A stretch of DNA of 32,000 bases from Edaphobacter aggregans (lineage in GTDB: Bacteria > Acidobacteriota > Terriglobia > Terriglobales > Acidobacteriaceae). Both the position numbers and the translations under genes were made by a program. How positions within the stretch are numbered: position 1 is the first letter of the stretch; every line of letters begins with the position of its first letter. Below the pieces are notes generated by a model. The model saw only the letters and a list, made by a program, of their open reading frames with translations. It made no database searches and was not told the origin of the DNA. The stretch is taken from assembly GCF_003945235.1 (NCBI RefSeq), contig NZ_RSDW01000001.1, positions 5,430,001 through 5,462,000 on the forward strand, read 5' to 3'. Positions 2,505 to 18,202 of this stretch are shown here, in pieces.

Positions 2505-2564
2505 TTACGATCTCCCAATCCCATCATTGAGCAGATCCGCCTCAATATGCAACAAGTTAGATTG

Positions 2565-2607
2565 CCTTACACGCCGTCGTAAGGTAAATGTCAGAATCCC
2601 GTAAGTG
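2565..2607. promoter_or_regulatory. candidate response-regulator binding region in the divergent promoter
   Basis: Inverted repeat CCTTAC-N8-GTAAGG lies at 2565-2584. CGTAAG occurs as a direct repeat at 2578 and 2600, exactly 22 bp (two helical turns) apart. The region sits 40-80 nt upstream of the ATG at 2647, inside the 142-bp RR/efflux intergenic region. Confidence 0.3.
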
Positions 2608-2646
2608 TCTCTAGTGATTCAATTTGATTTGAGGGACACCGAATTT

Positions 2647-3441: not shown

Positions 3442-3518
3442 CAGGCACCTGTTCCATACCTAAATCATTACCACGATGCAAGCAATACAAGACCATCGAC
3501 TGAATTATCGGAGCACGC

Positions 3519-3872
3519 ATGTTACAAGCAGGACAAGCAGTGAAGGTCACCGTTCATCTCAATCAGGACACCGGGGGTGCAACAGGATTTCTACTTGATG
3601 ACTTGTTCAAATTTCTGCGCGCAAACGGGGTTGAAGGTGCGACAGCATTTCGTGCCTATGCAGGGTTCGGCGCGCACCATCAGTTACACACAACCGGAGC
3701 GGGAGATGTCGCCGGTCTGCATCTGCCCGTAATTCTCTATTTCATCGAAACACGAGAAAAAGTTGACTCGATCCTGACCGAGCTCCTTTCACTTGTAACC
3801 GATGGTCTTGTAGAGGCGCAGCCCACAGAGATCTTAAAGACTGCGACGAGTGTGGGCAGGGTAATTGTTTGA
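3519..3872 (+). CDS. DUF190 (UPF0166) PII-like protein
   Basis: 117 aa. The pattern VKVTVHLNQD..., LFKFLRANGVEGATAFRAYAGFG...H...LPVILYFIETREKVDSILTEL matches the DUF190 layout (beta-alpha-beta, GATVxRGxxGFG, LPVxIExVD). GGAG lies 5 nt upstream of the ATG, and there is a 4-nt overlap with the next gene. Confidence 0.8.
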   Translation: MLQAGQAVKVTVHLNQDTGGATGFLLDDLFKFLRANGVEGATAFRAYAGFGAHHQLHTTGAGDVAGLHLPVILYFIETREKVDSILTELLSLVTDGLVEAQPTEILKTATSVGRVIV

Positions 3873-5191
3873 TGGCTCGCCGAAAGCTAACGTTCTTTGT
3901 TTCTCTATCCCTTGTCACCTCATTTTGCGTACCCGCGTTTCCGCAGGTAACGATACCCCCTTTAAGTCCTCCAATCCTGACACTTGATCAAGCTGAGACA
4001 ACGGCCCTTGCAAACCAACCTCGGCTGCTTGCAGCGCAGTTGAGGGCACGCGCCTTTGCTAAGCGTATTGTTGAAACTCGTTCCGGCTATATGCCGCAGG
4101 TGGCGTTTAATGCGACCGGCGTAAGAGTGGCTGATACAGGCACCTCAACAGCGGCGGGGAACATTACAACGTCCGCGATCTCTGACCGCTTTGCGTACGG
4201 CGGGAATCTGGCTCAGCTTGTCACGGACTTCGGTAGAACGAGCGCACTTGTAAGCAGCGCGCGAGCTACGGCTGACGCGCAAAGTGACATTGCCACGCTC
4301 ACCCGTGCTCAGGTGCGCCTCACTGTCATTGAAGCCTACTACCGCGTCCTGGGATCTGAAGCGGTGCTTCGAGCGGCACAAGCAGCTCAAACAAATCGCC
4401 AGCTTATCTCCCGTAGGTTATCTGCACTTGCCGATAACGAGCTTCGCTCCACTCTCGATGTCAACTTCGCCAAAGTCCTGGAAAGCGAAGCCGACCTTGC
4501 GGTCGTCCGTGCGGAAAGCACAGTCGCACAGCAAAGGGTGAAGCTGGCAACTGCAATGGGAATTTCCGCTCCCGTTACGTCACAGTTGCAGGAACCATCT
4601 GCCTCTTCCGACAGTCTTCCGCCAGATGCGGAATCTTTCATGAAAACGGCGGGAGAGTATCGCGCTGATCTCAACGCGGCTAAAGCACAGCAACTTGCGG
4701 CCAATAAATTCGCGCTTTCGGAGCGAAGAATGAGTTATCCGACACTCAATATCCTGGCGGCTGCCGGACAGGTTCCCTTTCACGATCACACTCTACATGA
4801 CGACTACGCTGCCGCTGGATTCAACCTCAATATTCCGATCTTCAACGGCGGCCGCTTTGCTGCCCGTAGAGGAGAAGCTGAACTCGAAGCAAGCGCGCGA
4901 ACGCGCGATGTTCAAGAGATTCAATTGCAGGTCACAGAACAAGTGCGAGATGCCTGGTATCAGGCCGACGAAGCATACCGCAGTCTCGATGTTACCGCCC
5001 GCCTCGTAGCTCAAAGTAAGGAAGCCCTTCGGCTGGCGCAAGACCGCTACGAGGCTGGCCTGGGAAGCATCGTGGAACTCAATGAAGCGCAACTCAACGA
5101 AACGTCGGCCGAAATAACAAGTGCGGACTCGACCTACACCTACCTACTACGCCGTGCGGAACTCGATTTTGCGGCGGGGTTGTTGAATTGA
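3869..5191 (+). CDS. TolC-family outer-membrane efflux protein
   Basis: 440 aa with a signal peptide (LTFFVSLSLVTSFCVPAFPQ). It contains two OEP repeats with long coiled-coil Ala/Gln/Arg-rich segments and typical motifs such as LTLDQAETTALANQP and LDVNFAKVLES. Confidence 0.9.
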   Translation: MMARRKLTFFVSLSLVTSFCVPAFPQVTIPPLSPPILTLDQAETTALANQPRLLAAQLRARAFAKRIVETRSGYMPQVAFNATGVRVADTGTSTAAGNITTSAISDRFAYGGNLAQLVTDFGRTSALVSSARATADAQSDIATLTRAQVRLTVIEAYYRVLGSEAVLRAAQAAQTNRQLISRRLSALADNELRSTLDVNFAKVLESEADLAVVRAESTVAQQRVKLATAMGISAPVTSQLQEPSASSDSLPPDAESFMKTAGEYRADLNAAKAQQLAANKFALSERRMSYPTLNILAAAGQVPFHDHTLHDDYAAAGFNLNIPIFNGGRFAARRGEAELEASARTRDVQEIQLQVTEQVRDAWYQADEAYRSLDVTARLVAQSKEALRLAQDRYEAGLGSIVELNEAQLNETSAEITSADSTYTYLLRRAELDFAAGLLN

Positions 5192-6420
5192 AAGGGATTG
5201 ACATGGTCTTTAACATGCGTACCCCAATGTTGGGACTGCTTACAGCCGTAGGCGCCAGTATACTGACGTCCTGCACATCGGGCGCGCCCCCGTCGGTAGA
5301 AGCCTCGAGCGTACCGTACGCGACGGTCGAACCATCTACGCTGGCGAATGATCTCACACTGTCTGCTGAGTTTCGCCCGTATCAGGAAGTGGATGTGATG
5401 GCCAAGATCGCGGGCTATGTTAAGGACATCGGCGTCGATATCGGCGATCACGTGCAACAGGGAGAGGTACTTGCTGTACTTGAGGTCCCGGAGATTCAGG
5501 ATGAGTTGGCCAAGGCCAAAGCTGGAGTAGCAACCGCGGATGCCAACATTGTAACCGCTGAGGCGGCGGTCACCCATGCACGAGCGGCGGCAAACATCGC
5601 ACACCTTTCATTTCAACGTATCCATGATGTAGCCACGAGAGACAAGGGCTTGGTGCCGCGACAGGATGTAGATGTTGCACAGTCTCGGGATCTCGAAGCG
5701 GCAGCTGAGCTAGCAAGCGCAAACTCTGCCTTGAAGGCGGCGCAGGAACTCCGGACTGGAGCTGAGTCAGAATATTCGCGTGCTCAAGCCATGTCGCAAT
5801 ATGCGACGATACGGGCGCCCTTCACTGGTGTCATTACCAAACGCTACGCAAATCAGGGATCGATGATCCAAGCGGGCACTTCTTCGCAGTCACAAGCTAT
5901 GCCTGTGGTTCGGATAGCGCAGAACGACACGCTCCGTGTCATCGTACCAGTCCCTGTAAACTCCGTTGCTGGCATCAAAGATGGGCAGCCTGTAGAAGTA
6001 AATGTCACGAACCTTGGAATCATGATTCGCGGTAACGTCACCCGTTACGCAAACGCACTACAAATGACCACGCGGACTATGGATACCGAGATCGACGTAC
6101 CAAACCACGATGGGAAGCTTGTACCAGGCATGTATGCGGAGGTGCATTTGCATCTTGCTGCTCGCCCAGATGTGCTGAGCTTGCCCCTCGACGCCGTGGA
6201 TGGTCTTGGAACTAGCGTGCAGCAGGTCTATCTGGTGCAGGGTGACCTTCTCCGTCTCATAAAAATCACTACCGGACTTCAGACATCCTCGCGGGTTGAG
6301 ATTCTCTCAGGTCTAAAACGCGGAGATAAAGTAGTCGTCGGCCGTCACAGTGGTCTCTCCGATGGGGAGAAGGTGGATGCAAGACCAGCTAGCTACGAAT
6401 CAAACGTCGGTCAAAGCTAG
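5188..6420 (+). CDS. RND efflux periplasmic adaptor (MFP/HlyD family), probable lipoprotein
   Basis: The TTG at 5188 overlaps the TolC stop; ATG at 5203 (MVFNMRTPMLGLLTAVGASILTSC, lipobox LTSC) is the more likely start. Biotinyl-lipoyl-like motif is GYVKDIGVDIGDHVQQGEVLAVLE, followed by a coiled-coil hairpin, IRAPFTGVITKR and beta-barrel/MP domains. Confidence 0.9.
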   Translation: MKGIDMVFNMRTPMLGLLTAVGASILTSCTSGAPPSVEASSVPYATVEPSTLANDLTLSAEFRPYQEVDVMAKIAGYVKDIGVDIGDHVQQGEVLAVLEVPEIQDELAKAKAGVATADANIVTAEAAVTHARAAANIAHLSFQRIHDVATRDKGLVPRQDVDVAQSRDLEAAAELASANSALKAAQELRTGAESEYSRAQAMSQYATIRAPFTGVITKRYANQGSMIQAGTSSQSQAMPVVRIAQNDTLRVIVPVPVNSVAGIKDGQPVEVNVTNLGIMIRGNVTRYANALQMTTRTMDTEIDVPNHDGKLVPGMYAEVHLHLAARPDVLSLPLDAVDGLGTSVQQVYLVQGDLLRLIKITTGLQTSSRVEILSGLKRGDKVVVGRHSGLSDGEKVDARPASYESNVGQS

Positions 6421-6449
6421 ATTTCAGTGAGCAAGGAAGAAGAGGTAGC

Positions 6450-9400
6450 ATGTCCGGATTCTCCATCCGAAATCCATATCTAATTGTTGTGCTTTGCCTG
6501 GTCGTGATGATTCTCGGCGTGGTAAGTGTCTCTGACATGCCTATCGACATGTTTCCCTCGATCAATTTACCGGTGGTCGCAGTGGCGACTTTCTATTCGG
6601 GTATGCCCCCGCAGCAAATCGAGACGAACATCACATACCATCTCGAACGTCAGTTCACCCTGGCGAGCGGTATCGATCACATGGAATCGCGTTCGCTGCC
6701 GGGCGTGAGCCTCATAAAGGTGTTTTTTCGGGCTGGGACGGATCCTGACAGCGCAGCCGCGTCGATCTCTTCACTGGCAATGAGTGATCTGAAGGATATG
6801 CCGCCCGGCACTTACCCGCCGATCATCCTCAAACAAGATGCGTCGAGCATTCCTGTAGCACTTGTACCGCTGTCAGGCTCAGGATTGAGTGAAAGCAAAC
6901 TGAAAGACTTGGGCCAAAACTTTGTCCGTAATCAATTAGCTGGAGTGCAAGGCGCATCAGTGCCCCAGCCATTTGGTGGTACGTGGCGACAAATTCAGCT
7001 TTATGTGGATCCTTACAAGCTCGAAGCAAACCAACTAAGTCCGATGGACGTAGTGCGATCCGTCAATGACACCAATGTCATCCTCCCGGCTGGCGATGCG
7101 CAGATTGGGCGTATTGATTACAACATTTACACGAACTCGATGCTTAAGGGGCCTGAAGATATTGCTCAGGTGCCGATTAAGACGGTGGGGCAATCTACTG
7201 TTCGCGTGGGAGATGTTGCAACTCCCCAAGACTCGTTCGGGCGGCAATACAACATCGTTCGCGTAGACGGTCAGCGTGCAGTGTATCTGCCCATCTTCAA
7301 ACAGGGTGGGGACTCCAATACGATCGCGATTGTCGACGGCGTCCGGGCCACCATCAAGAAGCTCTACGATGTGCCCACTTCCTTGCAAGCCACTGTCGTA
7401 TTCGATCAGGCACGCTTCGTCAGAACTGCGATTGAAACGCTAATTCATGAAGGCGGAATCGGTTTGTTCCTCACTTGCCTCATGATTCTGATCTTCCTCG
7501 GCAGTATGCGCGCGACGTTGGCTGTTTTCTTTTCTATTCCACTATCACTTTTTGCTACATTCATCATCCTGCGTCTATCCGGGAGCTCCATCAACAGCAT
7601 GGTTCTTGGCGGTCTAGCGTTGGCGCTCTCACGACTTATCGACAATTCGGTGGTTGTCCTCGAAAACATTTTTCGTCATCTGGAGGGTGGGGAAGCGCCC
7701 GTAGTTGCGGCAGAAAAGGGTGGTCGTGAAGTTGCACTTCCCGTCCTGGCTGGGACACTCACAACCGTTGTTGTGTTCTTTCCAGTCACCATGCTCTACG
7801 GTGTCAGTCGCTTCCTGTTTTCTTCGCTTGCTCTGGCGGTCGTCATCTCGCTATTTGCCTCTTACTTCGTTGCGCTCACTGTTGTGCCACTTTTTTGCGC
7901 GCGGTTCATCAAAAGTGCTCATGGTGACGTGGTTCACGAATCAGCTGAGACAGAATATGACATACCTGCTAAGGCCGACGCCGGGCAATCGGGTATTTGG
8001 GCTCGATTCAATGCGCACTTTACCAAGGGTTTCGATGGCCTCTTGCGAAGATATGACCAGCTTGTAGAGCGCGTCCTGGAGGTCCCGCGTGCCACGCTCG
8101 CTATCTTCGGATTCATCTTCGTGTTCAGTCTGCTCCTTTTTCCACTTCTTGGACTATCGTTTTTTCCAAGGACGGATGCCGGCCAATTCGTGATCAACTT
8201 CAAAGCACCCTCTGGCACACGGCTCGATGCGACCAACCAGGAGACCGCGAAGTTGGAGGGCATTATTCGCCGTATCGTTTCGAAGCACGATATGGGAATG
8301 ATCGTCTCCAATATCGGCGTCAACCCTGGCTTCTCCGCGTTATATTCCCCAAACTCCGCGATGCATACGGGCTTTACCCAAGTTGCTCTAGCCGCAGATC
8401 ATAAGACCAGTAGTTTTGCATACATCGACGAAGTGAAGCACGCTCTCGCGACTGAGATGCCGGAGCTTCAAACCTTTTTTTCGAGCGGCAGTCTCGTCGA
8501 CGGCGTGCTAAACATGGGTGCTCCTGCTCCGATAGATGTGAGAGTCGCAGGCAATGACATGACAGCGGATTACAACATCGCCCAGTCTATCGCTTCACGG
8601 ATCCGCAAGATCAACGGGATTGCAGATGTATATGTGCCGCAGGATATCGACTACCCGTCTCTACGCATCGCGATCGATCGAAACCGAGCGGGCGAACTCG
8701 GCCTGACGGAGAAGGAAGTCGTCTCGAATCTGATCACGGCTCTCACTTCTAATCAGATGATTGCTCCGAGTATCTGGATCGATCCCAACAGCGGGAACAA
8801 TTACTTCCTGACGGTCATGTACAAGGATGGACAGATTAAGTCACTTGATGATCTGAAGGCAATTCCGCTTCATGGTTCGAATGTTGGTCAAACAACCCGT
8901 CTGGACATGGTTGCAGACCTACAACAATTCAACGCTCCAACCGAACTTGACCACACGCAGATTCGCCGTAATGTCGATATCTATGTACGTCCCCAAAGGG
9001 AAGATTTGGGTAGAATCACGCACGAGATTCAAGTCATCGTTAATTCCGCAGATGTGCCCAAGGGCATGAATGTAACGCTAAGCGGAAGCGTCAACTCAAT
9101 GAATGAGTCATTTCATAGCTTCGCGATCGGGTTGATGCTATCGGTGCTCCTGCTTTATCTCATCCTTGTCGCGCAGTTCCGATCTTTCCTGGATCCTTTC
9201 ATTATCCTTCTTGCCCTCCCCCCAGGCCTCATGGGCGTGATGGTTGCACTTCTGGTCTGGCACACCACGCTTAATGTGATGTCTCTTATGGGTGTAGTGA
9301 TGCTCGCCGGAATCTCGTTGTCGAACAGTATTCTCATCGTGGAGTTTGCTCATCATCTATTAAAGGAAGGAATGAGCGTCCGCGATGCAATTGTCACCTC

Positions 9401-9623
9401 TTGTCGAGTTCGTCTGCGTCCCATTCTGATGACTTCACTCGCTACAATCATCGGACTGCTACCTATGGCTCTTAAGCTAGGAGAGGGCAGCGAGTCCTAT
9501 GCGCCGCTGGCCCAGGCTCTGATCGGTGGTCTTACGCTCTCCGTATTGTTGACTGTCTTTCTGGTTCCAGCCGGATTCTATCTTGCATATCAGCCTAAAA
9601 ATCCTGAGGCTTCCGCGCACTGA
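6450..9623 (+). CDS. RND efflux permease (AcrB/CusA/CzcA superfamily)
   Basis: 1057 aa with 12-TM topology and two large periplasmic loops. The TM4 motif is LIDNSVVVLEN, the TM10 motif is SNSILIVEFA, and the TM11 motif is RLRPILMTSLATIIGLLPMAL. Confidence 0.95.
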   Translation: MSGFSIRNPYLIVVLCLVVMILGVVSVSDMPIDMFPSINLPVVAVATFYSGMPPQQIETNITYHLERQFTLASGIDHMESRSLPGVSLIKVFFRAGTDPDSAAASISSLAMSDLKDMPPGTYPPIILKQDASSIPVALVPLSGSGLSESKLKDLGQNFVRNQLAGVQGASVPQPFGGTWRQIQLYVDPYKLEANQLSPMDVVRSVNDTNVILPAGDAQIGRIDYNIYTNSMLKGPEDIAQVPIKTVGQSTVRVGDVATPQDSFGRQYNIVRVDGQRAVYLPIFKQGGDSNTIAIVDGVRATIKKLYDVPTSLQATVVFDQARFVRTAIETLIHEGGIGLFLTCLMILIFLGSMRATLAVFFSIPLSLFATFIILRLSGSSINSMVLGGLALALSRLIDNSVVVLENIFRHLEGGEAPVVAAEKGGREVALPVLAGTLTTVVVFFPVTMLYGVSRFLFSSLALAVVISLFASYFVALTVVPLFCARFIKSAHGDVVHESAETEYDIPAKADAGQSGIWARFNAHFTKGFDGLLRRYDQLVERVLEVPRATLAIFGFIFVFSLLLFPLLGLSFFPRTDAGQFVINFKAPSGTRLDATNQETAKLEGIIRRIVSKHDMGMIVSNIGVNPGFSALYSPNSAMHTGFTQVALAADHKTSSFAYIDEVKHALATEMPELQTFFSSGSLVDGVLNMGAPAPIDVRVAGNDMTADYNIAQSIASRIRKINGIADVYVPQDIDYPSLRIAIDRNRAGELGLTEKEVVSNLITALTSNQMIAPSIWIDPNSGNNYFLTVMYKDGQIKSLDDLKAIPLHGSNVGQTTRLDMVADLQQFNAPTELDHTQIRRNVDIYVRPQREDLGRITHEIQVIVNSADVPKGMNVTLSGSVNSMNESFHSFAIGLMLSVLLLYLILVAQFRSFLDPFIILLALPPGLMGVMVALLVWHTTLNVMSLMGVVMLAGISLSNSILIVEFAHHLLKEGMSVRDAIVTSCRVRLRPILMTSLATIIGLLPMALKLGEGSESYAPLAQALIGGLTLSVLLTVFLVPAGFYLAYQPKNPEASAH

Positions 9624-9696: not shown

Positions 9697-10971
9697 ATGA
9701 ATGGCTGGCTCGACCAACTACATGGTGGTTCGACTGCTTTTCCTCCGGTGGTCACCGCAATCAAACTTGCGGTGGCGTTGGCTATCGGGCTGCTTATTGG
9801 GTTTGAACGTCAGTGGTCTCACAAAGATTTTGGCGTTCGTACCTTCAGCCTTACGGCTCTTCTCGGAGCGTTGACAGCTCTTATTTCGACACCCGTCATG
9901 CTCATGGGAATGCTGGCTACGGTTCTGCTTGCAGTTCTTTTAAACGTGCGGGACATCGTTGCGTCCAGGTCGGTAGAAGGAACGACCTCTGTCGCCTTGG
10001 TGGTCACTTTTGTCCTCGGCGCGCTGATCGGCAACGGGCACATGTTTACTTCGGTCGCCTGCGCAATCGTAGCAACGTGGCTGCTCTCTCTAAAACCCCA
10101 GTTCAAGCAATTTGCAGGAGGGGTACGGGCGGAGGAGATCCGGAGCGCGGTTCTTCTGGGACTTTTCGGATTCGTCATCTGGCCTCTGCTCCCCGATCGT
10201 TACGTCGATCCGTGGAGGCTTTTGGAGCCACGGGAAGCGTGGGTGACTGTTGTTGTCGTGGCCGGCATAGGATTCGCCAACTACGTTCTACTTCGTGTTT
10301 ATGGCAAACGTGGAATTGCCCTCACCGCGATCCTAGGAGGTCTCGTCAATTCGACTGCTGCGGCGGCGGAACTGGCTGCCATCCTTCCTGCCGCAGGACT
10401 CCTCTCGCAAACTGTCCCGGCTGTGCTTCTAACTTCCGTCGCGATGTTCCTTCGGAACGCAGTCTTACTAGGTCTTTTTGGCAGATCGGCGGTCCGGTTC
10501 GCCGTACTTCCATTACTTGCGATGATGGTCGTTGCTACTTATTTTGCCTCCCGGCATCGACAGGTGGATGCAAATCCAAAGGAGTTGGAGCTTCACCTTG
10601 CATCTCCCGTCTCCCTAAAGAGGGTCATCAGTTTCGGATTTCTTTTTATCGCGATCCAAATTGCAGGAACTCTGGCGGTGCGGTGGCTGGGCAACAGTGG
10701 TGTCCTGTTGGTAAGTGTGATCGGGGGAACCGTATCGAGCGCGAGCACGACCGCTGCCGCCGCAAATCTTCTAACCCATGGCAACGTTAGCGCCCAACAA
10801 GCCGGTATCGCGACGGTGTTGACTTCTATAGCGAGTACCACGATGAACCTGCCCATCGTCAAACGGCAGATCAAGGTGCAAGGCGTGATGCGCGAGATCG
10901 TGCTCGCTACGACTCTTCAAGGCATTGTCGGTATAACTATCTTGTTCTGCGAAAGATGGTTTATGCACTAG
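9697..10971 (+). CDS. MgtC/SapB-family membrane protein with DUF4010 C-terminal domain
   Basis: 424 aa and polytopic. The N-terminal MgtC-type motif is AIKLAVALAIGLLIGFERQWSHK..GVRTF, followed by a long hydrophobic DUF4010-like region. Confidence 0.8.
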   Translation: MNGWLDQLHGGSTAFPPVVTAIKLAVALAIGLLIGFERQWSHKDFGVRTFSLTALLGALTALISTPVMLMGMLATVLLAVLLNVRDIVASRSVEGTTSVALVVTFVLGALIGNGHMFTSVACAIVATWLLSLKPQFKQFAGGVRAEEIRSAVLLGLFGFVIWPLLPDRYVDPWRLLEPREAWVTVVVVAGIGFANYVLLRVYGKRGIALTAILGGLVNSTAAAAELAAILPAAGLLSQTVPAVLLTSVAMFLRNAVLLGLFGRSAVRFAVLPLLAMMVVATYFASRHRQVDANPKELELHLASPVSLKRVISFGFLFIAIQIAGTLAVRWLGNSGVLLVSVIGGTVSSASTTAAAANLLTHGNVSAQQAGIATVLTSIASTTMNLPIVKRQIKVQGVMREIVLATTLQGIVGITILFCERWFMH

Positions 10972-11068: not shown

Positions 11069-11512
11069 TTAGCTTGAGTTGCCGCAACTGCAATCGCGAC
11101 AGAATGTGTGATTGGTTCTGTGCGCGGCGATCATGAACCCGCTCCCAACCAGAGTGATGAGAACCTCTGCCCGTGGGACGGCAGACGGGTTGCCCAAATC
11201 TGCGGCGCCGAAGATAAAGGCCAGGCTAACAACCATGAGCACCAGCATGCGCGAAGAGCGAGGGCTCCGGTAACACCTTACCAGCGTAATGGCTCCAAGG
11301 GTGGCGATGGCTACTGCGAGGGTGCGATGTATTCGTTCCTCCGATGGCAGGAAATGAGCCGAGACAGCGGAAAGGGAAAGCAGCACCGGAGTCAGCAGGC
11401 AATGGACCACGCACAGTGTCGATGTCCAGATGCCAATCTGGTCCACTGGAAAAGCTAAAGTCTGGCTTGGGCTGCCCGTCACGGGCGACTCTGGGAGTTG
11501 AGATTCTGTCAT
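11069..11512 (-). CDS. MerC-domain membrane protein (metal permease-like)
   Basis: 147 aa with 4 predicted TMs. The first TM carries CVVHCLLTPVLLSL (the CxxHC pattern of MerC-domain proteins). The C-terminal tail is AAHRTNHTFCRDCSCGNSS (His/Cys cluster). AGGA lies 7 nt before the ATG. Confidence 0.7.
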   Translation of the reverse strand: MTESQLPESPVTGSPSQTLAFPVDQIGIWTSTLCVVHCLLTPVLLSLSAVSAHFLPSEERIHRTLAVAIATLGAITLVRCYRSPRSSRMLVLMVVSLAFIFGAADLGNPSAVPRAEVLITLVGSGFMIAAHRTNHTFCRDCSCGNSS

Positions 11513-11531: not shown

Positions 11532-11893
11532 TCAACGCCACGGCTCCAGCAAGTGGTCTTTGAATTCACGCGGCAACTCCAATAAATGTCTCGCCTTCAC
11601 CGAGCGGTGCGCCCATTCCACCAGAGACCTGTACTGATTGACGTGAGTGATGTTGCCTAGCCACTGTGATCCAGCCTCTGAATTTATCTCGACAACATTG
11701 GGAAATCGCAAGGACCGACACAGCCGCTCACGGTGAGCTGAAACCGTTTCAGTAGACCGCGCCTACGCCACTCATCTTTTAACCAGTCCACTGGGACTTC
11801 CGGGCGGTCCTTATGGGTCGCTCCGCAGCAGCAGCCATGGCAAACGATCATTTGGCCGATCACACGGCGTTTGGTCCCCAACATTTTCCCCAC
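11532..11893 (-). pseudogene. thioredoxin-like [2Fe-2S] ferredoxin-type Cys-rich protein, interrupted by a 1-nt frameshift
   Basis: Frame 1 (11893/11884 down to 11684) reads (MGK)MLGTKRRVIGQMIVCHGCCCG...LTVSGCVGPCDFP and then stops. A second frame continues without a stop as NVVEINSEAGSQWLGNITHVNQYRSLVEWAHRSVKARHLLELPREFKDHLLEPWR, ending at the stop at 11532-11534. The junction is at a C3/G3 homopolymer (+ strand ATTGGGAAAT, about 11697-11706). Confidence 0.55.
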
Positions 11894-11913: not shown

Positions 11914-11941
11914 AATATACTATAGGGGACTATATTATACC
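11914..11941. promoter_or_regulatory. candidate CsoR/RcnR-family operator (G-tract flanked by AT-rich inverted repeat)
   Basis: Sequence is AATATACTATAG-GGGA-CTATATTATACC. The core TATAG/CTATA arms are perfect and the extended 12-nt arms match 9/12. It is the only palindrome in the 68-bp divergent intergenic region, 21 nt upstream of the repressor TTG start. Confidence 0.4.
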
Positions 11942-11961: not shown

Positions 11962-12240
11962 TTGTCTCATACAACAAAAAATAAGGCGAAGACGCTCTCG
12001 CGAGTCCGGCGCATCAAAGGTCAGGTCGAAGCCATCGAACGGGCGCTTGAAGGAGACAGCGAATGCGAGGACATCCTGCAACTCGTTGCTTCGTGCCGCG
12101 GCGCGCTCAACGGATTGATGGCGGAACTGATCGAGGGCCACTTGAAATTTCACGTTTTGGTCGAAGGTCAGAAGACGCTCCCTTCGCAGCGTGAGGCAGC
12201 CGACGAGCTCATAGCAGTAGTCAAGAGGTACTTCAACTAA
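11962..12240 (+). CDS. CsoR/RcnR-family metal-sensing repressor, RcnR-type H-C-H-H fingerprint
   Basis: 92 aa with a TTG start and AGGA 7 nt upstream. Sequence MSHTTKNK...RIKGQVEAIERAL..SEC35EDIL...ELIEGH60LKFH64 places H3, C35, H60 and H64 at exactly the E. coli RcnR Ni/Co-ligand positions. Confidence 0.88.
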   Translation: MSHTTKNKAKTLSRVRRIKGQVEAIERALEGDSECEDILQLVASCRGALNGLMAELIEGHLKFHVLVEGQKTLPSQREAADELIAVVKRYFN

Positions 12241-12256
12241 GGATTCGGAGACGACT

Positions 12257-14221
12257 ATGGCTGTCGTACATGAAAGAAACACACCGGCTGATCTTAGCCA
12301 GATCGCTGAAGCTGGCATCCATCTGCCAGAGCCCACGGATACCCACGAAGAACAGGACGATGAGCACGGTTTTGAAATCGCAGATATTCTCCGTGTCATC
12401 TTTGTAGCGGTTGCCGCCGCAGCGGTGTGGTGCCATCTTTGGGAGCCATTTCATCGGGTCAGCGTAATTGGACTGGCGGCCACGCTGATCGGCGGCTACC
12501 CGATCTTCAAAGAGGCGTTTGAGAACATCATCGAGCGACGCATGACGATGGAGCTTTCCATGACCATTGCGCTCGTCTCCGCGCTGGCAATCGGAGAATT
12601 CTTTACCGCGCTGGTCATTACCGCCTTCGTGTTGGGAGCGGAAATCCTCGAAGGACTCACCGTAGGCCGCGGACGGCGCGCTATTCAGGACATGCTGGAT
12701 TTCCTTTCCCAAATTGCCAGCGTGCTGCGCAATGATCAAGTCATTGAAGTGGACACGAATACGATTCTTCCGGGCGAGATTGTCCTGATTCGGCCCGGCA
12801 GCCGTATTCCAGTTGATGGTCATGTCGTGAGCGGGCACTCCTTTGTCGAACAGGCCGCTATCACCGGCGAGCCGATGCCGAGCGAAAAGACAATAGGCAG
12901 CGAGGTCTACGCCGGCACCATCAATCAGGCGGGTACGCTCCAGGTTCGTGTCGATCGCCTGGGCAAAGAGACGACCTTCGGCAAGATCATTGAAGCGGTC
13001 GAGAATGCCGAGCACTCGCGCGCTCCCATTCAAAAGACGGCGGACCGGCTCGCCGGATATCTGGTCTATTTCGCACTCGGAGCAGCGGTGCTCACCTTCA
13101 TCCTCACCCACAACATCCGATCCACGATCTCCGTCATCATTGTGGCCGGGGCATGCGGTATCGCCGCGGGCACGCCGCTTGCCATCCTGGGCGCGATCGG
13201 GCGCGCTGCACGGCATGGCTCGATCATCAAGGGCGGGATTTATCTGGAAGCACTGGGGCAATTGGATACCGTCTTCCTCGATAAGACAGGCACTTTGACC
13301 TATGGAGTACCTTTGGTCACAAAAATCAGTACCGGGCCGGGAATTTCGGAGCGAACATTGCTCGAAGCAGCGGGCAGCGCTGAAAGAAACTCGGAGCATC
13401 CACTTGGCCGTGCCATTGTCCGGTTCGCCGAGCAGCAGAGGATTACCATCGTCGAGCCCGAGCACTTCGAGTATCGAATTGGCCGCGGCGTGCTGGCCTC
13501 GCTCGATGGCGAACAGGCAGTAGTTGGGAGTCGGGCCTTATTCAAGGAACTCGGAATTGCATTGCCTCAACACGCTGGAACCGCCGACGGAACGGAGATC
13601 CTCGTCGCGCGGGGAGGTCGCTACCATGGTTCTGTGCTGGTCACAGACCAACTGCGCCCCAGTGCCATTGCCGCGGTCAAGGCCCTCCAGGAAATGAAAA
13701 TCAAAGTCATCTTGTTGACAGGAGACACAAGAGGAGCAGCTGAAACCGTAGCCGATCATCTTGGCATCGTTCAGGTCTATCCCGAGTTGCTTCCTCAGCA
13801 GAAGGCAAGTTTCATCGCGGAGCAGGTGCGTAAAGGTCGCACCGTGGCGATGCTCGGAGACGGCATCAACGATGCGCCCGCACTCAGCGAAGCAACTGTC
13901 GGCGTCGCCATGAGCGCGGGTACAGACGTGGCCCGGGAGAGCGCGGATGTCGTGCTGATCGGCAACGATCTGACGAAGTTCGTCGAGACAGTTCAAGTCG
14001 CGCGAAACTGCCGCCGTATCATCCTGCAAAACTTCTACGGGACGCTCATTGTCGATACCGCAGGAATCGGTCTGGCTGCAGCCGGATTCCTCAATCCGCT
14101 TCTAGCGACGTTTATCCATGTTGCATCAGAACTGACATTCATCCTGAATTCGACGCGCCTACTGCCTCCGAGGGAGAAAGGCAAGGTTGCCGACAGTCAG
14201 CAGGAGCCGGCACATGTCTGA
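12257..14221 (+). CDS. heavy-metal translocating P1B-type ATPase with non-canonical TM metal site
   Basis: 654 aa. Motifs present: TGEP (ITGEPMP), DKTGTLT, SEHPLGRAI (HP), GDGINDAPAL and VLTGD-like LLTGD. There is no N-terminal CxxC domain; the acidic/His N-terminus reads THEEQDDEH. The TM4 position reads AGACGIAAGTP where CPC/SPC is expected. Confidence 0.95.
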   Translation: MAVVHERNTPADLSQIAEAGIHLPEPTDTHEEQDDEHGFEIADILRVIFVAVAAAAVWCHLWEPFHRVSVIGLAATLIGGYPIFKEAFENIIERRMTMELSMTIALVSALAIGEFFTALVITAFVLGAEILEGLTVGRGRRAIQDMLDFLSQIASVLRNDQVIEVDTNTILPGEIVLIRPGSRIPVDGHVVSGHSFVEQAAITGEPMPSEKTIGSEVYAGTINQAGTLQVRVDRLGKETTFGKIIEAVENAEHSRAPIQKTADRLAGYLVYFALGAAVLTFILTHNIRSTISVIIVAGACGIAAGTPLAILGAIGRAARHGSIIKGGIYLEALGQLDTVFLDKTGTLTYGVPLVTKISTGPGISERTLLEAAGSAERNSEHPLGRAIVRFAEQQRITIVEPEHFEYRIGRGVLASLDGEQAVVGSRALFKELGIALPQHAGTADGTEILVARGGRYHGSVLVTDQLRPSAIAAVKALQEMKIKVILLTGDTRGAAETVADHLGIVQVYPELLPQQKASFIAEQVRKGRTVAMLGDGINDAPALSEATVGVAMSAGTDVARESADVVLIGNDLTKFVETVQVARNCRRIILQNFYGTLIVDTAGIGLAAAGFLNPLLATFIHVASELTFILNSTRLLPPREKGKVADSQQEPAHV

Positions 14222-14231
14222 GGATTGCTGA

Positions 14232-14357
14232 ATGCGCCAATTTGTCCGATCAGGCATAATGCGGACAATCTTTACTGTTCTGTCATGGATTTTTGTGTTC
14301 CTGTTAGTGCTTTTCTACTTTCGGGTTCTGATGAAGGGATATTTCTGGATGGACTAG
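14232..14357 (+). CDS. possible 41-aa single-TM small protein immediately downstream of the ATPase
   Basis: GAGGA (14220-14224, overlapping the ATPase stop) lies 7 nt before the ATG at 14232. Translation MRQFVRSGIMRTIFTVLSWIFVFLLVLFYFRVLMKGYFWMD contains one aromatic-rich TM helix. It is too short for the ORF track and I recognise no homology. Confidence 0.3.
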   Translation: MRQFVRSGIMRTIFTVLSWIFVFLLVLFYFRVLMKGYFWMD

Positions 14358-15014: not shown

Positions 15015-17717
15015 TTAGAAGTTTAAACTTACCTGTCCGGTGAAGGCCCGGGGCGAGACATAGTGGGTTCCCGAGAAGGTGGAGAGGAAGTTGTAGAGGG
15101 CGAATTTATTGGTGACGTTAATTGCGCTAAGACGAAGCCCGACTTTGTATCTGTCGCCATGAAAGAGATTGTCTTCTCCAAGTGCGATGTCAAAGAGGTT
15201 TCGTGGCGCGATTCGCTGCGGGTTGTGGTCATCATCCTCAGTGTTGGGTTTTGGGATATTGATGAGACTTGAGGTGAGACCGTTCGCATCGCACTGCGTA
15301 AAGCCTGAGGTGGGTGTGGCTCTTATGCCGTCGCAGGCCAGTCCTGCCTGGAACTGCTGGTCAGGCGTAAGGCCGCTCAGGTCGATTCCCGGCTGGCCAT
15401 TAGGCAGGGTGATGGAGGTGCTTCCGCAGCCCGTGTTGAGGCCGATAGTGTTGTAGCAGGGCACCGCGCCTGCGACGAGACCGTTGTCATAACGCCAGTT
15501 GAAGCCGAGCCAGGTGCTCTTGCGGAAGGGCAAGGTGTACTGCAGGTGCGTGGTCTGGTTGAATTTCTCGTCGTGATCGATGCGGAACGGCAAGCCGCCT
15601 GGAGTGCTGACGGTTGCGCCTACGCCGCCGATCTGCGGATTGAAGAAGCGCGCCGCTACTGACGACATTACGACGAAGGCGCTGATGCCATGCGTTTCGG
15701 GAACGCTCACACGGAGCGCATAGCCCGGGATCTTCGAGTTATGCCATTCGATGGGGAAGGTAATGGGGGTTGCGCCCAGCACGCTGAAGTCATAGGCGTT
15801 GTGCGTGTACTTCCAGATGTAGTCTCCGCTAAAGACGAGATGCCTGCCGAACGCCTGCTGCAGGCCGGCGTGGAACTCATTCCGGAAGCCCGGATTGAAC
15901 GGCGCCGGAGTGCACTGGCCGAGCGTTTCGAAGACAGCCTGCAGTACAGGATCAACACAGCCCTTAACCGAGAGGACCAGATTCTCATTGAAGGGGGTTT
16001 CCATGGTTCTTGCGTAGGAGAGGCGCAGTACCGTGTTGGTCTGCTTGATGGTGTAGGAGGTTCCGACACGGGGCTGAGCCTGACGCTCGACGGAGAGACC
16101 GTTGTAAAGATCACCGCGAATACCGACATTGAAGACCCAGTTGCCGGCGGTGATCTGATCCTGCACGTACATGGCTAGCTGCTTGACAGCTGTCTGGCCA
16201 TGCCAAGAATAGATGGTGCCACCGCGAGTGAGGTCAATCGGCAGAAGGATTGGATTGAAGCCTGCGTTCGGCTGGTAGCCGAGCGAGGAAGGGCACTTGC
16301 TAGGGTCGTTGAAGCCGATCACCGGATTGCCGTCCGCGTCCAGGCAGGGCGAGTTCAGTGTCGGATCGATGACGCCGATGTTGTTGTTCTCGCGAAGGTA
16401 GGTCTGTTCATACACAGCGCCAAACTTCATGTTGTGGATGCCCTTGATGTACGAGAGATCGGTGCGCAGGCCGGCGTTGGTCAACGAACGGGTCTGTGCG
16501 ACGGTCTCCTGCTGGATGGGGCCGAGATCGGCCAGTGGATTATTGCTGGGGAAGTAGTTGAAGGCGTCCTTGCGGACGAAGCCGCCGAAGTTGAAGATCG
16601 TATCCTTATTGATGATGCGCGTGTAAGTTGGTGCTATGTTGTAGGTCTCGATCTTGGAGCGTTGATCCGCAGGCCCAACCGGGTTGCCGAACTGATCTAA
16701 AACCGCGGATGTGTCGAAGGAATTCGGTGTCTGGAACCAGGAGCGGGTGTATTGCAGGTTGGTGTGGACGGAAGATTTATCCGAGAACTGGTAGTCCACA
16801 CGATCAAAGATGTTTTGTTGGTTGCCCCTACTGTGTATGACCGTGAACTCGGGGCCATCGAGAAAGCGGCCGGTATTCAAACCGCTGACCGCGAGGAAGT
16901 TACCCCAGTGGGTGTTGCCGTATGAGAGATCGCCTCCGCCGTTCGCGCTACCGAAGGTTCCGTAAGAACCGTAGATACTGCCGTGGGGTGTCGTAACACC
17001 CTGGCCGGAGCGGGTGGTGGCAACGATGACGAGGCTGGTTTTGTCTCCGAACTCAGCGGGTGGCGCTCCGCTGATGACCGTGAGCGACTGAACGGCTTCC
17101 ATGGGGAGTTGGTTGGAAAACACCTTGCTCTGCTGGTCCGTGATCGGCTGTCCGTCCACAGAGAAGGAGTTTTGGGCATGATCGCCGAGACCATGGAAGA
17201 GGCCGTTGGAGTCAGCGGCAACACCGGGAGAGGCCAGCGTCACGAGCGAACTGAGTGAAGACGACTGGCTCTCGAGGGGAAGGCGATCGATGATGTGACG
17301 GTCCACATCCGTATGGGCGGTCGGATCGTTCTCGATCAGGTCAGAGCCGGTTTCTACCGTGACGCTGGTGGAAGTCGTCTCGACACCGAGGCGAATTGAC
17401 ACCGTCACAGGCACGCCGGAGGCAATGTCTACCGTTTGAGTCGCGCTGCTGAAGCCGGTCACGTTAAAGACGAGGCGGTAAGGGTTATAGGGGACGTTAT
17501 AGAAGTGATACGTTCCGGCCGCATCCGTCTTCGTTGTGCGTTCGTATCCGCTGACGGGATTCAAAAGCTGAACGGTGACGCCAGGTACAACCGCTCCGCT
17601 GGGGTCTGTCACTGTGCCAGTCAAATTGCCTGAGGTGCCCTGGGCCAGTGCTCCAGTAACAAGAAGAGCCAGTGAGAAAAGAAGTAATGGAAGTCGAGTG
17701 AGAATAGGCCTGCACAT
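15015..17717 (-). CDS. TonB-dependent receptor with N-terminal carboxypeptidase-regulatory-like domain
   Basis: The track ORF extends to 17792, but the ATG at 17717 gives MCRPILTRLPLLLFSLALLVTGALAQ, a signal peptide. This is followed by GNLTGTVTDPSGAVVPGVTVQL...TDAAGTYHFYNVPYNPYRL (CarboxypepD_reg fold), a plug region (DRLPLE...GLGDHAQNSFSVDGQPITD), a long beta-barrel and a C-terminal aromatic ...GQVSLNF. Confidence 0.9.
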   Translation of the reverse strand: MCRPILTRLPLLLFSLALLVTGALAQGTSGNLTGTVTDPSGAVVPGVTVQLLNPVSGYERTTKTDAAGTYHFYNVPYNPYRLVFNVTGFSSATQTVDIASGVPVTVSIRLGVETTSTSVTVETGSDLIENDPTAHTDVDRHIIDRLPLESQSSSLSSLVTLASPGVAADSNGLFHGLGDHAQNSFSVDGQPITDQQSKVFSNQLPMEAVQSLTVISGAPPAEFGDKTSLVIVATTRSGQGVTTPHGSIYGSYGTFGSANGGGDLSYGNTHWGNFLAVSGLNTGRFLDGPEFTVIHSRGNQQNIFDRVDYQFSDKSSVHTNLQYTRSWFQTPNSFDTSAVLDQFGNPVGPADQRSKIETYNIAPTYTRIINKDTIFNFGGFVRKDAFNYFPSNNPLADLGPIQQETVAQTRSLTNAGLRTDLSYIKGIHNMKFGAVYEQTYLRENNNIGVIDPTLNSPCLDADGNPVIGFNDPSKCPSSLGYQPNAGFNPILLPIDLTRGGTIYSWHGQTAVKQLAMYVQDQITAGNWVFNVGIRGDLYNGLSVERQAQPRVGTSYTIKQTNTVLRLSYARTMETPFNENLVLSVKGCVDPVLQAVFETLGQCTPAPFNPGFRNEFHAGLQQAFGRHLVFSGDYIWKYTHNAYDFSVLGATPITFPIEWHNSKIPGYALRVSVPETHGISAFVVMSSVAARFFNPQIGGVGATVSTPGGLPFRIDHDEKFNQTTHLQYTLPFRKSTWLGFNWRYDNGLVAGAVPCYNTIGLNTGCGSTSITLPNGQPGIDLSGLTPDQQFQAGLACDGIRATPTSGFTQCDANGLTSSLINIPKPNTEDDDHNPQRIAPRNLFDIALGEDNLFHGDRYKVGLRLSAINVTNKFALYNFLSTFSGTHYVSPRAFTGQVSLNF

Positions 17718-17845
17718 AGGAATAACTCCTGTCGAGCTCGAATGAGCGTGCTGAAAAGCGCTGTCTCGTGCCAAAGGGGGGCACGAAATCACAGGGAGGA
17801 CAGGTCCTTTAAATTGTTCTGAAGAATCCTGACGCCTGCAGGAAA

Positions 17846-18202
17846 CTAAGCGCAGTTTTGGTCAGCAGGAGGTGGGCGGCTGGCCATCTCGAATCGCCAC
17901 CGGAAGATTCGCTCGGCATCGGCCGCCGCAGAATCCAGGGCGTGGACGAGCAGCATCGGGGTAGGAGCAGAGTGTAGTGACACAGGCAAGGCGGAGTGCA
18001 TCGCTACACAAAGCGGGCAATGGTCGTCCGAGGACGGACCGTTATTGCCAGAGTGCTGCTTTATAGGAGAAAACTGATCATGCGCGTGAAAGGCCTGGAT
18101 CGTACTCATCACGCAGATCATGACGAGGCAGGCAATCGCAAACAGGCGCAGCCATAGCGGCCACTTCCGTTCGTACCATCCGCCTTGGAACATGTTTTGC
18201 AT
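17846..18202 (-). CDS. DUF2946-like membrane-anchored Cys/His protein
   Basis: 118 aa. An N-terminal TM (LWLRLFAIACLVMICVMSTIQAF) is followed by HAHD and DDHCPLCVAMHSALP, then APTPMLL and a C-terminal SRPPP. The HCP(L/F)C...H...LP plus terminal RxPP pattern is what I recall for DUF2946 proteins encoded beside TonB-dependent copper receptors. It lies 128 nt upstream of the receptor gene on the same strand. Confidence 0.6.
   Translation of the reverse strand: MQNMFQGGWYERKWPLWLRLFAIACLVMICVMSTIQAFHAHDQFSPIKQHSGNNGPSSDDHCPLCVAMHSALPVSLHSAPTPMLLVHALDSAAADAERIFRWRFEMASRPPPADQNCA

What the first reader, a model, noticed from the sequence alone, without database searches (positions are those of the whole stretch)
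12257..14221. P1B ATPase without a CPx motif, paired with an RcnR-type sensor
The pump has all the P-type catalytic motifs. At the TM4 position where P1B pumps carry CPC, CPH, SPC or TPC directly before xLGxxTP, it reads A-G-A-C-G-I-A-A-G-T-P, so only the last Cys is kept and the Pro is lost. The final TM reads HVASELTFILNSTRLL. This resembles, but does not match, the HEGGT...N..RLL motif of Co/Ni/Fe-type P1B-4 pumps or the MxxSS motif of Cu pumps. There is no CxxC domain, only an acidic/His stretch (THEEQDDEH). The gene starts 16 nt after a repressor that has the exact E. coli RcnR ligand set (H3, C35, H60, H64). That argues for a Ni/Co-responsive exporter using a non-standard transmembrane metal site. 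In E. coli, RcnR controls RcnA rather than an ATPase.
Basis: partly seen in the sequence, partly recalled or inferred. Interest (0 to 1): 0.62.

Follow-up and report, generated by a model that had tools for sequence, protein, structure and literature searches.

The report
Proline-less metal pump with nickel/cobalt-type sensor
A metal-sensing repressor of the nickel/cobalt type sits directly in front of a metal-export pump whose ion site reads Gly-Ala-Cys where nearly all such pumps have Cys-Pro-Cys; the pair is a conserved, mobile two-gene module found in many soil microbes and apparently not yet named or tested.

Summary
ORF 12257-14221 is an intact P1B-type ATPase. Two independent profile alignments put G298-A299-C300 exactly where CopA has C-P-C and sCoaT has S-P-C. 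The gene 16 nt upstream encodes a CsoR/RcnR-family repressor with MSHT, C35, H60 and H64, as in E. coli RcnR.

This is not a one-off. They span about 17 phyla, archaea included. These pumps form one clade (support 100), separate from the CPC, SPC and CSC classes. C300, D600, H621, S624 and E625 are invariant or nearly so.

In 63 of 97 loci with upstream DNA, an RcnR-type gene precedes the pump; 57 have the full H-C-H-H set. A conserved G-tract palindrome precedes the regulators. The module is patchy: 3 of 400 other genomes of the phylum, and on plasmids.

Most likely it is a derepressible exporter of a divalent metal, probably Co/Ni. The substrate is inferred, not shown. I found no description in the searchable literature, but the key 2014 classification paper could not be read.

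This scan has reported the same module before on other DNA (e1-950959 and two first-reader notes). I class it as a new variant of a known kind.

The parts
11915..11940 (.). Candidate operator ATATACTATAGGGGACTATATTATAC. The core palindrome is TATAG-GGGA-CTATA at 11921-11934. It overlaps a -10-like TATACT at 11916-11921.
   Evidence: The sequence was read. The same kind of site (TATA/ATAC arms around a 4-6 G/C tract) lies 10-60 nt upstream of the regulator in nearly all related loci. The promoter-like hexamers come, where the count was not above shuffles.
11962..12240 (+). CsoR/RcnR-family (DUF156) repressor, 92 aa, with ligand set H3-C35-H60-H64 and N-terminus MSHT
   Evidence: PF02583 79.8 bits. 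NCBIfam FrmR 91.7 and RcnR 75 bits, both below their cut-offs. Aligned to E. coli RcnR and FrmR. The same fingerprint is found in 57 of 63 regulators that sit upstream of related pumps.
12257..14221 (+). P1B-type ATPase of the 'GAC' clade, 654 aa, with eight TM helices
   Evidence: AlphaFold2 model with pLDDT 87.5 and pTM 0.83. Best structural match is AfCopA in the E1 state, 7r0g, TM-score 0.79. The clade has support 100 in two trees.
12341..12367 (+). Acidic/His stretch THEEQDDEH (residues 29-37) just before helix MA, in a disordered N-terminus
   Evidence: pLDDT below 50 for residues 1-36. His/Asp/Glu-rich runs at this place are common in the family, with a median of 4 His and 7.5 Asp+Glu; a CxxC occurs in 1 of 72.
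13145..13177 (+). TM4 motif A297-G-A-C300-G-I-A-A-G-T-P307, with G-A-C in place of C-P-C
   Evidence: Alignments. Invariant in 64 diverse members. The model shows the M4 helix broken at 297-299.
13280..13294 (+). Phosphorylation motif DKTGT (D342)
14030..14056 (+). TM5 motif N592-F-x-G-T596-x-x-V-D600. D600 sits where CopA has the Asn of its YN motif.
14117..14161 (+). TM6 motif H621-V-x-S624-E625-x-x-F-I-x-N-S-x-R-L635. H621 aligns with CopA Met and sCoaT His; E625 aligns with CopA Ser and sCoaT Thr.
11532..11893 (-). Divergent small Cys-rich gene resembling a thioredoxin-like [2Fe-2S] ferredoxin, split over two frames in this genome. It is a possible third member of the module in Acidobacteriota.
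   Evidence: The frameshift is shown. Intact 128-aa relatives lie within the 8-kb locus of the pump in 25 of 118 loci. Weak matches to 2Fe-2S ferredoxin domains.

Best explanation
This is a two-gene, self-regulated metal-efflux module.

Regulation. At low metal, the RcnR-type tetrameric repressor binds the G-tract palindrome at 11915-11940, which overlaps the -10 region, and shuts off its own operon. When a divalent metal fills the site formed by the N-terminal amine, H3, C35, H60 and H64, the repressor leaves the DNA and the regulator and pump are transcribed together.

Transport. The pump is a complete P1B-type ATPase that runs the normal E1/E2 phosphorylation cycle and moves the metal from cytoplasm to periplasm. 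Its membrane site is not the usual one. TM4 keeps a single thiolate (C300). Two flanking glycines (G298, G301) take over the helix-breaking role of the missing proline. The remaining ligands are harder donors: D600 on TM5, and H621, S624 and E625 on TM6. One Cys plus His and carboxylates suits Co(II)/Ni(II), and less probably Zn(II) or Fe(II), rather than Cu(I).

The pump belongs to a distinct clade that spreads horizontally and is distributed patchily.

Shown here: gene integrity, motif register, family-wide conservation, the clade, the pairing and the operator motif. Inferred: repression, the direction of transport and the metal. I put about 0.85 on a functional, repressor-controlled divalent-metal exporter and about 0.55 on Co/Ni as the main substrate.
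For: - **Intact pump.** All catalytic motifs are present and the P1B score is above cut-off.
- **Register of G-A-C.** It is fixed by two independent alignments.
- **Conservation.** A297, G298, A299, C300, G301, G305, T306, P307, N592, G595, T596 and D600 are invariant, and H621, S624, E625, N631, S632 and R634 are at least 90% conserved, in 64 members that are 40-82% identical to the window protein.
- **Ligand positions.** D600, H621 and E625 fall on the known ligand positions of CopA, and H621 and E625 also on those of sCoaT.
- **Structure model.** The AF2 model is confident and shows M4 unwound at 297-299. The fold is a P1B E1 state.
- **Clade.** Support is 100 in FastTree and in IQ-TREE.
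- **Pairing.** A regulator lies directly upstream on the same strand in 63 of 97 loci and nearby in 8 more; 57 of the 63 have the complete x-H-C-H-H set. The ligands are identical to E. coli RcnR.
- **Operator.** A conserved operator-like palindrome precedes the regulators and overlaps a -10-like hexamer here.
- **Metal-resistance neighbours.** CzcCBA-type RND systems and HupE/UreJ occur on plasmids, a CDF in 4 loci and a Fur-family gene in 8 loci.
- **Copper is already covered.** The genome has a separate canonical CPC/YN/MxxSS copper pump.
- **N-termini.** They are His/acidic-rich and CxxC domains are essentially absent, as in divalent-metal P1B pumps (PMC13677743).
Against:
- The H-C-H-H set is also found in T. 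thermophilus CsoR, which controls a copper operon and answers to several metals (PMC5057107).
- The regulator scores higher against NCBI's FrmR model than against its RcnR model, and it is below both cut-offs.
- 26 of 97 loci have no such regulator nearby.
- The neighbouring RND pump in this window scores better as a multidrug type than as a CzcA type.
- Metal specificity of P1B pumps is notoriously hard to read from motifs.
- The AF2 helix break may be inherited from the P1B family signal in the alignment rather than being specific evidence.
Confidence: 0.6

Rival explanations
1. The pump exports Zn(II), Cd(II), Fe(II) or Mn(II) rather than Co/Ni. The H-C-H-H sensor is tuned in vivo to one of these metals.
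For: FrmR with the single change E64H, which makes it H-C-H-H-like, becomes Zn- and Co-responsive in cells (PMC4528141, PMC5016687). Fur-family genes, possibly Zur-like, sit within 1.5 kb of the pump in 8 loci, and a CDF in 4 loci. The Cys/Asp/His/Glu ligand set would also fit Zn or Fe. P1B-4 pumps with the related H...T motif carry Zn, Cd, Co and Fe (PMC13460109).
Against: All characterised natural H-C-H-H members with the MxHT N-terminus that I know of (RcnR, DmeR) are Co/Ni sensors. HupE/UreJ, a Ni/Co permease family, lies beside the module on two plasmids. There is no ZntR- or SmtB-type sensor at the loci, except one ArsR-like gene.
Confidence: 0.22
2. It is a copper(I) exporter under a CsoR-type copper sensor, as in the Thermus copZ-csoR-copA operon.
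For: T. thermophilus CsoR has H-C-H-H and regulates a copper operon (PMC5057107). The closest solved structures by sequence and fold are copper pumps. The operator resembles CsoR boxes (PMC5057107).
Against: Every Cu(I) signature is missing: CPC, the YN of TM5 and the MxxSS of TM6. Only one thiolate remains and there is no Met. There is no CopZ or HMA domain. The genome has a canonical copper pump elsewhere. The sensor lacks the second Cys of x-C-H-C.
Confidence: 0.07
3. The regulator is a formaldehyde or other electrophile sensor (FrmR-like), and the ATPase handles something other than a transition metal.
For: The best NCBIfam match is FrmR (91.7 bits). The regulator is 44% identical to E. 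coli FrmR against 40% to RcnR. RefSeq names these proteins 'metal/formaldehyde-sensitive transcriptional repressor'.
Against: FrmR's sensing residue Pro2 is absent: residue 2 is Ser, Ala or Gly across the family, with His3 always present. H64, which FrmR lacks, is present. No formaldehyde dehydrogenase lies nearby. The pump is clearly a P1B heavy-metal type.
Confidence: 0.03
4. The pump is a decaying or inactive paralogue whose TM4 lost its motif by drift.
For: Two long-branch members nested in the clade have lost even the Cys (P0138 'SAP' and P0241 'TS'). The neighbouring ferredoxin-like gene in this window is frameshifted.
Against: The GAC motif and about 60 other positions, including all catalytic residues, are invariant across members that are only 40-82% identical to the window protein and come from about 17 phyla. 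The reading frame is open. The regulator and operator are conserved with it.
Confidence: 0.03

Closest known systems
P1B-4 ATPases (SPC / HEGxT; e.g. sCoaT of Sulfitobacter, PDB 7qbz; CtpD/CtpJ, CzcP, PfeT)
   Same: Both are divalent-metal P1B pumps without an HMA/CxxC domain and with a His-rich N-terminus. Both have a single Cys at the third position of the TM4 triplet. The TM6 His is at the same position, and the C-terminal motif is xLNSxRLL.
   Different: TM4 has G-A instead of S-P. TM6 reads H-V-x-S-E instead of H-E-G-x-T. TM5 carries an invariant Asp that sCoaT lacks. The two groups are separate clades in both trees. Identity is about 30%.
P1B-6 (SCA) and P1B-7 (CSC) classes of Smith, Smith and Rosenzweig 2014, as summarised in PMC13460109
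   Same: These are poorly characterised P1B classes whose TM4 triplet also lacks the proline. The spacing from a TM5 polar residue to the TM6 His is similar: D-x20-H here, N-x20-H in CPC/HNxS relatives in my alignment. The CSC/CAC group appeared as a weakly supported neighbour in one tree (support 82).
   Different: The triplet is GAC, not SCA or CSC. TM6 reads H-V/T-x-S-E, not H-N-x-S/T (P1B-6) and not the xxxPD seen in the CSC/CAC proteins. In the IQ-TREE run the GAC clade is separate from all of them. I could not read the 2014 paper or obtain its reference sequences, so the comparison rests on the review's wording.
RcnR-RcnA of E. coli and DmeR-DmeF of Rhizobium/Agrobacterium/Sinorhizobium (Co/Ni efflux under an H-C-H-H DUF156 repressor)
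   Same: The sensor family, the ligand set (MSHT, C35, H60, H64), the G-tract operator type and the logic of derepressed efflux are the same (PMC6044271; the operator type of RcnR is from my own knowledge).
   Different: The controlled exporter is a P-type ATPase, not RcnA or a CDF. The regulator is co-transcribed upstream rather than divergent. It is only 40% identical to RcnR and falls below NCBI's RcnR cut-off.
CsoR-CopA operons, including Thermus thermophilus CsoR with H-C-H-H
   Same: A DUF156 repressor sits next to a P1B ATPase with a palindromic GC-core operator (PMC5057107).
   Different: The pump has no copper signature and the sensor lacks the x-C-H-C set.

Membership tests
P-type ATPase, class P1B (heavy-metal) | Catalytic motifs TGE, DKTGT, TGD and GDGxNDxP, and the P1B nucleotide-domain HP dipeptide | tested here: met
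   ITGEP 202-206, DKTGT 342-346, SEHP 379-382, TGD 488-490 and GDGINDAP 534-541. TIGR01525 527 bits against a cut-off of 346.
P-type ATPase, class P1B (heavy-metal) | Eight TM helices (MA, MB, M1-M6) | tested here: met
   Helices in the AF2 model are 41-58, 70-92, 98-111, 115-148, 257-284, 287-319 (broken at 297-299), 572-608 and 614-633. TM-score 0.79 to AfCopA.
P-type ATPase, class P1B (heavy-metal) | CPx-type triplet (CPC, CPH, SPC, TPC) with a proline in TM4 | tested here: not met
   G298-A299-C300 aligns to C-P-C of CopA and to S-P-C of sCoaT.
P1B-1 (Cu+) | CPC in TM4, YN in TM5, MxxSS in TM6 | tested here: not met
   The protein has GAC, VD and HVASE at those positions. The P1B-1 proteins form a separate clade that contains the genome's other P1B pump.
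P1B-2 (Zn/Cd/Pb) | CPC in TM4, Lys in TM5, DxG in TM6 | tested here: not met
   Proteins with CPC, K and D(T/M)G lie in another clade.
P1B-4 (Co/Zn/Cd/Fe) | SPC in TM4 and HEGxT in TM6 | tested here: not met
   Only the Cys and the His are shared. The SPC/HEGST proteins form a separate clade.
P1B-6 | SCA in TM4 and N-x18-H-N-x-(S/T) between TM5 and TM6 (as given in PMC13460109) | tested here: inconclusive
   The literal motifs are absent: the protein has GAC and D-x20-H-V-A-S-E. No SCA-type reference sequence and no copy of the 2014 paper were at hand, so register and clade could not be compared directly.
P1B-7 | CSC in TM4 | tested here: not met
   CSC/CAC proteins with QSLPD in TM6 form their own clade.
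RcnR/DmeR-type Co/Ni sensor (DUF156) | W-X-Y-Z fingerprint H3-C35-H60-H64 with a free N-terminus MxH | tested here: met
   Direct count and alignment to E. coli RcnR. The same set is found in 57 of 63 partner regulators.
RcnR/DmeR-type Co/Ni sensor (DUF156) | Whole-protein score above NCBI's RcnR equivalog cut-off | tested here: not met
   75 bits against a cut-off of 138; the Pfam family PF02583 is met with 79.8 bits.
RcnR/DmeR-type Co/Ni sensor (DUF156) | Operator made of a G/C tract flanked by AT-rich inverted repeats in its own promoter | tested here: met
   TATAG-GGGA-CTATA at 11921-11934. Conserved in kind upstream of the partner regulators. Binding itself was not tested.
RcnR/DmeR-type Co/Ni sensor (DUF156) | Release from DNA by Co(II)/Ni(II) | not testable with these tools
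   This needs EMSA or reporter assays.
FrmR (formaldehyde sensor) | Pro2 next to Cys35, and no His at position 64 | tested here: not met
   Ser2 and His64 in this protein. E. coli FrmR has Pro2 and no His64. The FrmR model scores 91.7 bits against a cut-off of 133.

The most novel reading that the evidence does not exclude
The GAC pumps are an eighth, so far unnamed P1B subclass. It has replaced the TM4 proline, otherwise near-universal in P-type ATPases, by a Gly-x-Cys-Gly hinge. It binds its metal through one Cys plus Asp, His and Glu. It travels with its own RcnR-type sensor as a mobile Co/Ni resistance cassette across bacteria and archaea.
Probability: 0.45. Interest if true: 0.65.

Novelty: new variant of a known kind. 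Interest (0 to 1): 0.56.

Why it matters
The TM4 proline is usually treated as a hallmark of P-type ATPases, and the CPx triplet gave P1B pumps their old name. A large, conserved clade that works without it, using a glycine-flanked Cys together with Asp, His and Glu, would be a natural experiment. It could show how the ion site is built and how metal selectivity is set.

Dedicated Co/Ni P-type pumps are few and poorly defined. A cassette that carries its own sensor and operator gives a clean system for testing specificity in cultured, harmless hosts. It may also improve the annotation of soil metagenomes, where these genes are currently labelled only as 'cation-translocating P-type ATPase' or even as copper exporters.

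Tried and rejected
- **Literature.** Smith et al. 2014 (PMC4119550) is not held. The part of the 2024 Chem Rev review that treats P1B-6 lies beyond the held text. Searches for P1B-8/9, for 'SCA motif', for FUPA families, and for RcnR or DmeR with P-type ATPases found no description of a GAC-type pump.
- **Protein search in the phylum.** A whole-protein search in 200 genomes of the phylum at E 1e-120 found only the window itself. The motif pattern search was more informative.
- **Other regulators.** The 26 loci without an RcnR-type neighbour show no consistent alternative regulator: one ArsR-like and one AraC-like gene.
- **Window neighbours rejected as module parts.** MerC (11069-11512) recurs in 1 related locus and MgtC/DUF4010 (9697-10971) in none. 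The window's RND system is not clearly a heavy-metal type.
- **Small ORF.** The 41-aa ORF after the pump is not family-wide.
- **P0145.** This SPC pump with GAC-type TM5/6 is not an evolutionary intermediate. It is a chimera, about 85% identical over the last ~110 residues only.
Full report
**1. What is in the window**

ORF 12257-14221 (+) encodes a 654-aa protein. It carries the E1-E2 ATPase and HAD domains. It scores 527 bits on TIGR01525, the heavy-metal P1B ATPase model, against a cut-off of 346. ITGEP, DKTGT (D342), SEHP, TGD and GDGINDAP are all present. No HMA domain is found.

The ATG has GGAG 6 nt upstream and follows the stop of the preceding gene by 16 nt.

That preceding gene, 11962-12240, encodes a 92-aa PF02583 protein. 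It has a TTG start with GAGGA 7 nt upstream.

**2. The register of the odd motif**

HMMER aligns 'isviivAGACGiaaGTPlail' with 'iavlvvACPCafglaTPtalt' of A. fulgidus CopA. A profile of 64 family members aligns 'vAGACGiAaGtPlA' with 'aASPCALAIATPSA' of the P1B-4 pump sCoaT.

The same alignments place three further residues on known ligand positions:
- D600 (TM5) falls on the Asn of CopA's YN motif.
- H621 (TM6) falls on CopA's Met and on the His of sCoaT's HEGST.
- E625 (TM6) falls on CopA's Ser and on sCoaT's Thr.

**3. It is a family, not an accident**

A search of 1.8 billion representative proteins showed the motifs recurring in relatives down to about 40% identity. TM4 'AGACG[IV]AAGTP' recurs together with TM5 'NFxGTxxVD' and TM6 'IH[VT]xSE..F[IM]xNSxRL'. 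More distant hits have CPC, SPC, APC, CSC or CAC.

Of these, 118 hold an in-frame P1B ATPase with the motif. They come from:
- Acidobacteriota (48), Pseudomonadota (25), Actinomycetota (8) and Binatota (5);
- Myxococcota, Planctomycetota, Verrucomicrobiota, Chloroflexota, Bacteroidota, Cyanobacteriota and others;
- three archaea (two Nitrososphaerota and one unclassified archaeon).

In 64 diverse members, 40-82% identical to the window protein, the following residues are invariant or at least 90% conserved:
- TM4: A297, G298, A299, C300, G301, G305, T306 and P307.
- TM5: N592, G595, T596 and D600.
- TM6: H621, S624, E625, N631, S632 and R634.
- M1 and M2: M98, E99, S101, M102 and E132.

**4. 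Phylogeny**

FastTree was run on 165 proteins with the genome's KdpB as outgroup. IQ-TREE was run on 77. Both recover the GAC proteins as one clade with support 100. The clade is separate from four other groups:
- CPC/YN/MxxSS (P1B-1, which includes this genome's other P1B pump);
- CPC/K/DxG (P1B-2);
- SPC/HEGST (P1B-4);
- CSC-CAC/xxxPD.

Its position among these groups is unresolved. Two long-branch members nested inside the clade have lost the Cys. One apparent hybrid, P0145, is a chimera.

**5. Structure**

An AlphaFold2 model built from the family alignment is confident (pLDDT 87.5, pTM 0.83). It has eight TM helices and a disordered N-terminus. M4 is interrupted at residues 297-299, directly before C300. 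Its best structural match is AfCopA in the E1 state (TM-score 0.79).

The break is what the proline produces in other P-type ATPases. That role of the proline is established knowledge, not tested here. In this family the two invariant glycines are the likely substitute, which is an inference.

**6. The sensor and its link to the pump**

Aligned to E. coli K-12 proteins, the regulator shares MSHT, C35, H60 and H64 with RcnR. FrmR has Pro2-Ser3 and no His64. Overall identity is 40% to RcnR and 44% to FrmR, and both NCBIfam cut-offs are missed.

Across the family, 97 loci have at least 400 nt of upstream DNA. A homologous regulator lies directly upstream on the same strand in 63 of them, lies nearby (some divergent) in 8, and is absent in 26. 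Of the 63, 57 have the complete x-H-C-H-H set and N-termini of the form M-(A/S/G)-H-(T/I/L).

Nearly all regulators are preceded, 10-60 nt before the start codon, by a palindrome with ATAC/TATA arms around a run of 4-6 G or C. In the window this is ATATACTATAGGGGACTATATTATAC at 11915-11940, and it overlaps a -10-like TATACT. The site is of the CsoR/RcnR operator kind (PMC5057107; the RcnR TACT-G6-N-AGTA site is from my own knowledge).

**7. Context and mobility**

The module is rare and patchy:
- The motif occurs in 3 of 400 other genomes of the same phylum and in 1 of 13 of the same genus. The reversed control pattern gave none.
- In 30 genomes of the genus, nothing matches 11962-14221 at the DNA level except short P-type motifs.
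- Members lie on plasmids of Rhodanobacter, Novosphingobium (pLA4), Xanthobacter (pXAUT01), Bosea and Methylorubrum extorquens AM1 (p1META1). There they sit next to CzcCBA-type RND systems, HupE/UreJ genes, DUF1289 genes and transposases.

Recurrent neighbours among the genomic loci are listed below.

| Neighbour | Loci |
|---|---|
| Small ferredoxin-like Cys-rich gene | 25 |
| TonB-dependent receptor | 18 (at least 17 from Acidobacteriota, where the source is named) |
| RND pumps | 11-14 |
| Fur-family gene | 8 |
| CDF | 4 |

N-termini are typically His/Asp/Glu-rich just before helix MA, and CxxC is virtually absent.

**8. Reading**

The simplest account is a derepressible efflux cassette for a divalent, borderline-hard metal. 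Several points favour Co/Ni:
- the sensor's ligand set;
- the HupE/UreJ neighbours on two plasmids;
- the single-thiolate site with added N/O donors;
- the presence of a separate canonical copper pump in the genome.

Zn or Fe cannot be excluded. The H-C-H-H set is not strictly diagnostic (PMC5057107, PMC4528141).

**9. Novelty**

Reviews up to 2026 list classes P1B-1 to P1B-7, with PCP, SCA and CSC as the unusual triplets (PMC13460109, PMC7558416, PMC13677743). None that I could search mentions GAC. I could not read the founding paper for P1B-5 to P1B-7, so identity with a subgroup of P1B-6 remains possible.

An earlier follow-up in this scan, on another genome (e1-950959), reached the same reading independently. 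Two first-reader notes (e1-4499774 and e1-4973520) describe the same pair elsewhere.

**10. Verdict**

I class this as a new variant of a known kind, of moderate to good interest.

Noticed in passing
window 11532-11893 (-): The small Cys-rich gene divergent from the regulator is split over two reading frames near 11700. It has CxGCCCG and SGCVGPC motifs and weak similarity to thioredoxin-like [2Fe-2S] ferredoxin domains. Intact 128-aa relatives accompany the pump in 25 of 118 loci, mostly Acidobacteriota. Whether the split is a pseudogene or a sequencing error is unknown.
   Followed up: partly
window 14232-14357 (+): A 41-aa one-helix ORF starts 7 nt after a GAGGA that overlaps the pump's stop codon. 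Similar ORFs ('..SWIL..') follow the pump only in three close relatives (L041, L101, L120). A different small one-helix ORF ending DDLYGLLD follows it in 8 other acidobacterial loci. It is not a family-wide partner.
   Followed up: partly
window 15015-17792 (-) and 17846-18202 (-): A TonB-dependent receptor with a CarboxypepD_reg domain lies downstream of the pump. Relatives lie in the same 8-kb locus as the pump in 18 related loci, at least 17 of them from Acidobacteriota. A paralogue 82% identical in DNA lies at G000:4886887-4890104. Beside it is a small membrane protein with HxH and CxxC motifs and no family match.
   Followed up: partly
protein P0145 (representative library): This is a chimeric P1B ATPase. 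Its body is SPC-type and P1B-4-like, about 38% identical to the window pump. Its last ~110 residues are about 85% identical to the GAC family. It is either a natural recombinant or an assembly artefact.
   Followed up: partly
proteins P0138 and P0241 (representative library): These long-branch members are nested inside the GAC clade and have lost the TM4 cysteine ('SAP' and 'TS'). They may be inactive or repurposed pumps.
   Followed up: no
window 382-9623: A heavy-metal-type two-component system (best NCBIfam hits cztS/cztR-like, below cut-off) is followed by OEP, MFP and RND genes. The RND permease scores better as a multidrug type than as a CusA/CzcA type. Next comes an MgtC/DUF4010 protein (9697-10971) and a MerC-family protein (11069-11512, - strand). 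MerC recurs with the pump in one related locus and MgtC/DUF4010 in none.
   Followed up: partly
L126 (M. extorquens AM1 plasmid p1META1), 5536-9958: The plasmid copy of the regulator-pump pair ends at an IS21-family element (ISMex13). The pump matches the window protein only up to residue 595, so this copy seems to be truncated at its C-terminus.
   Followed up: no
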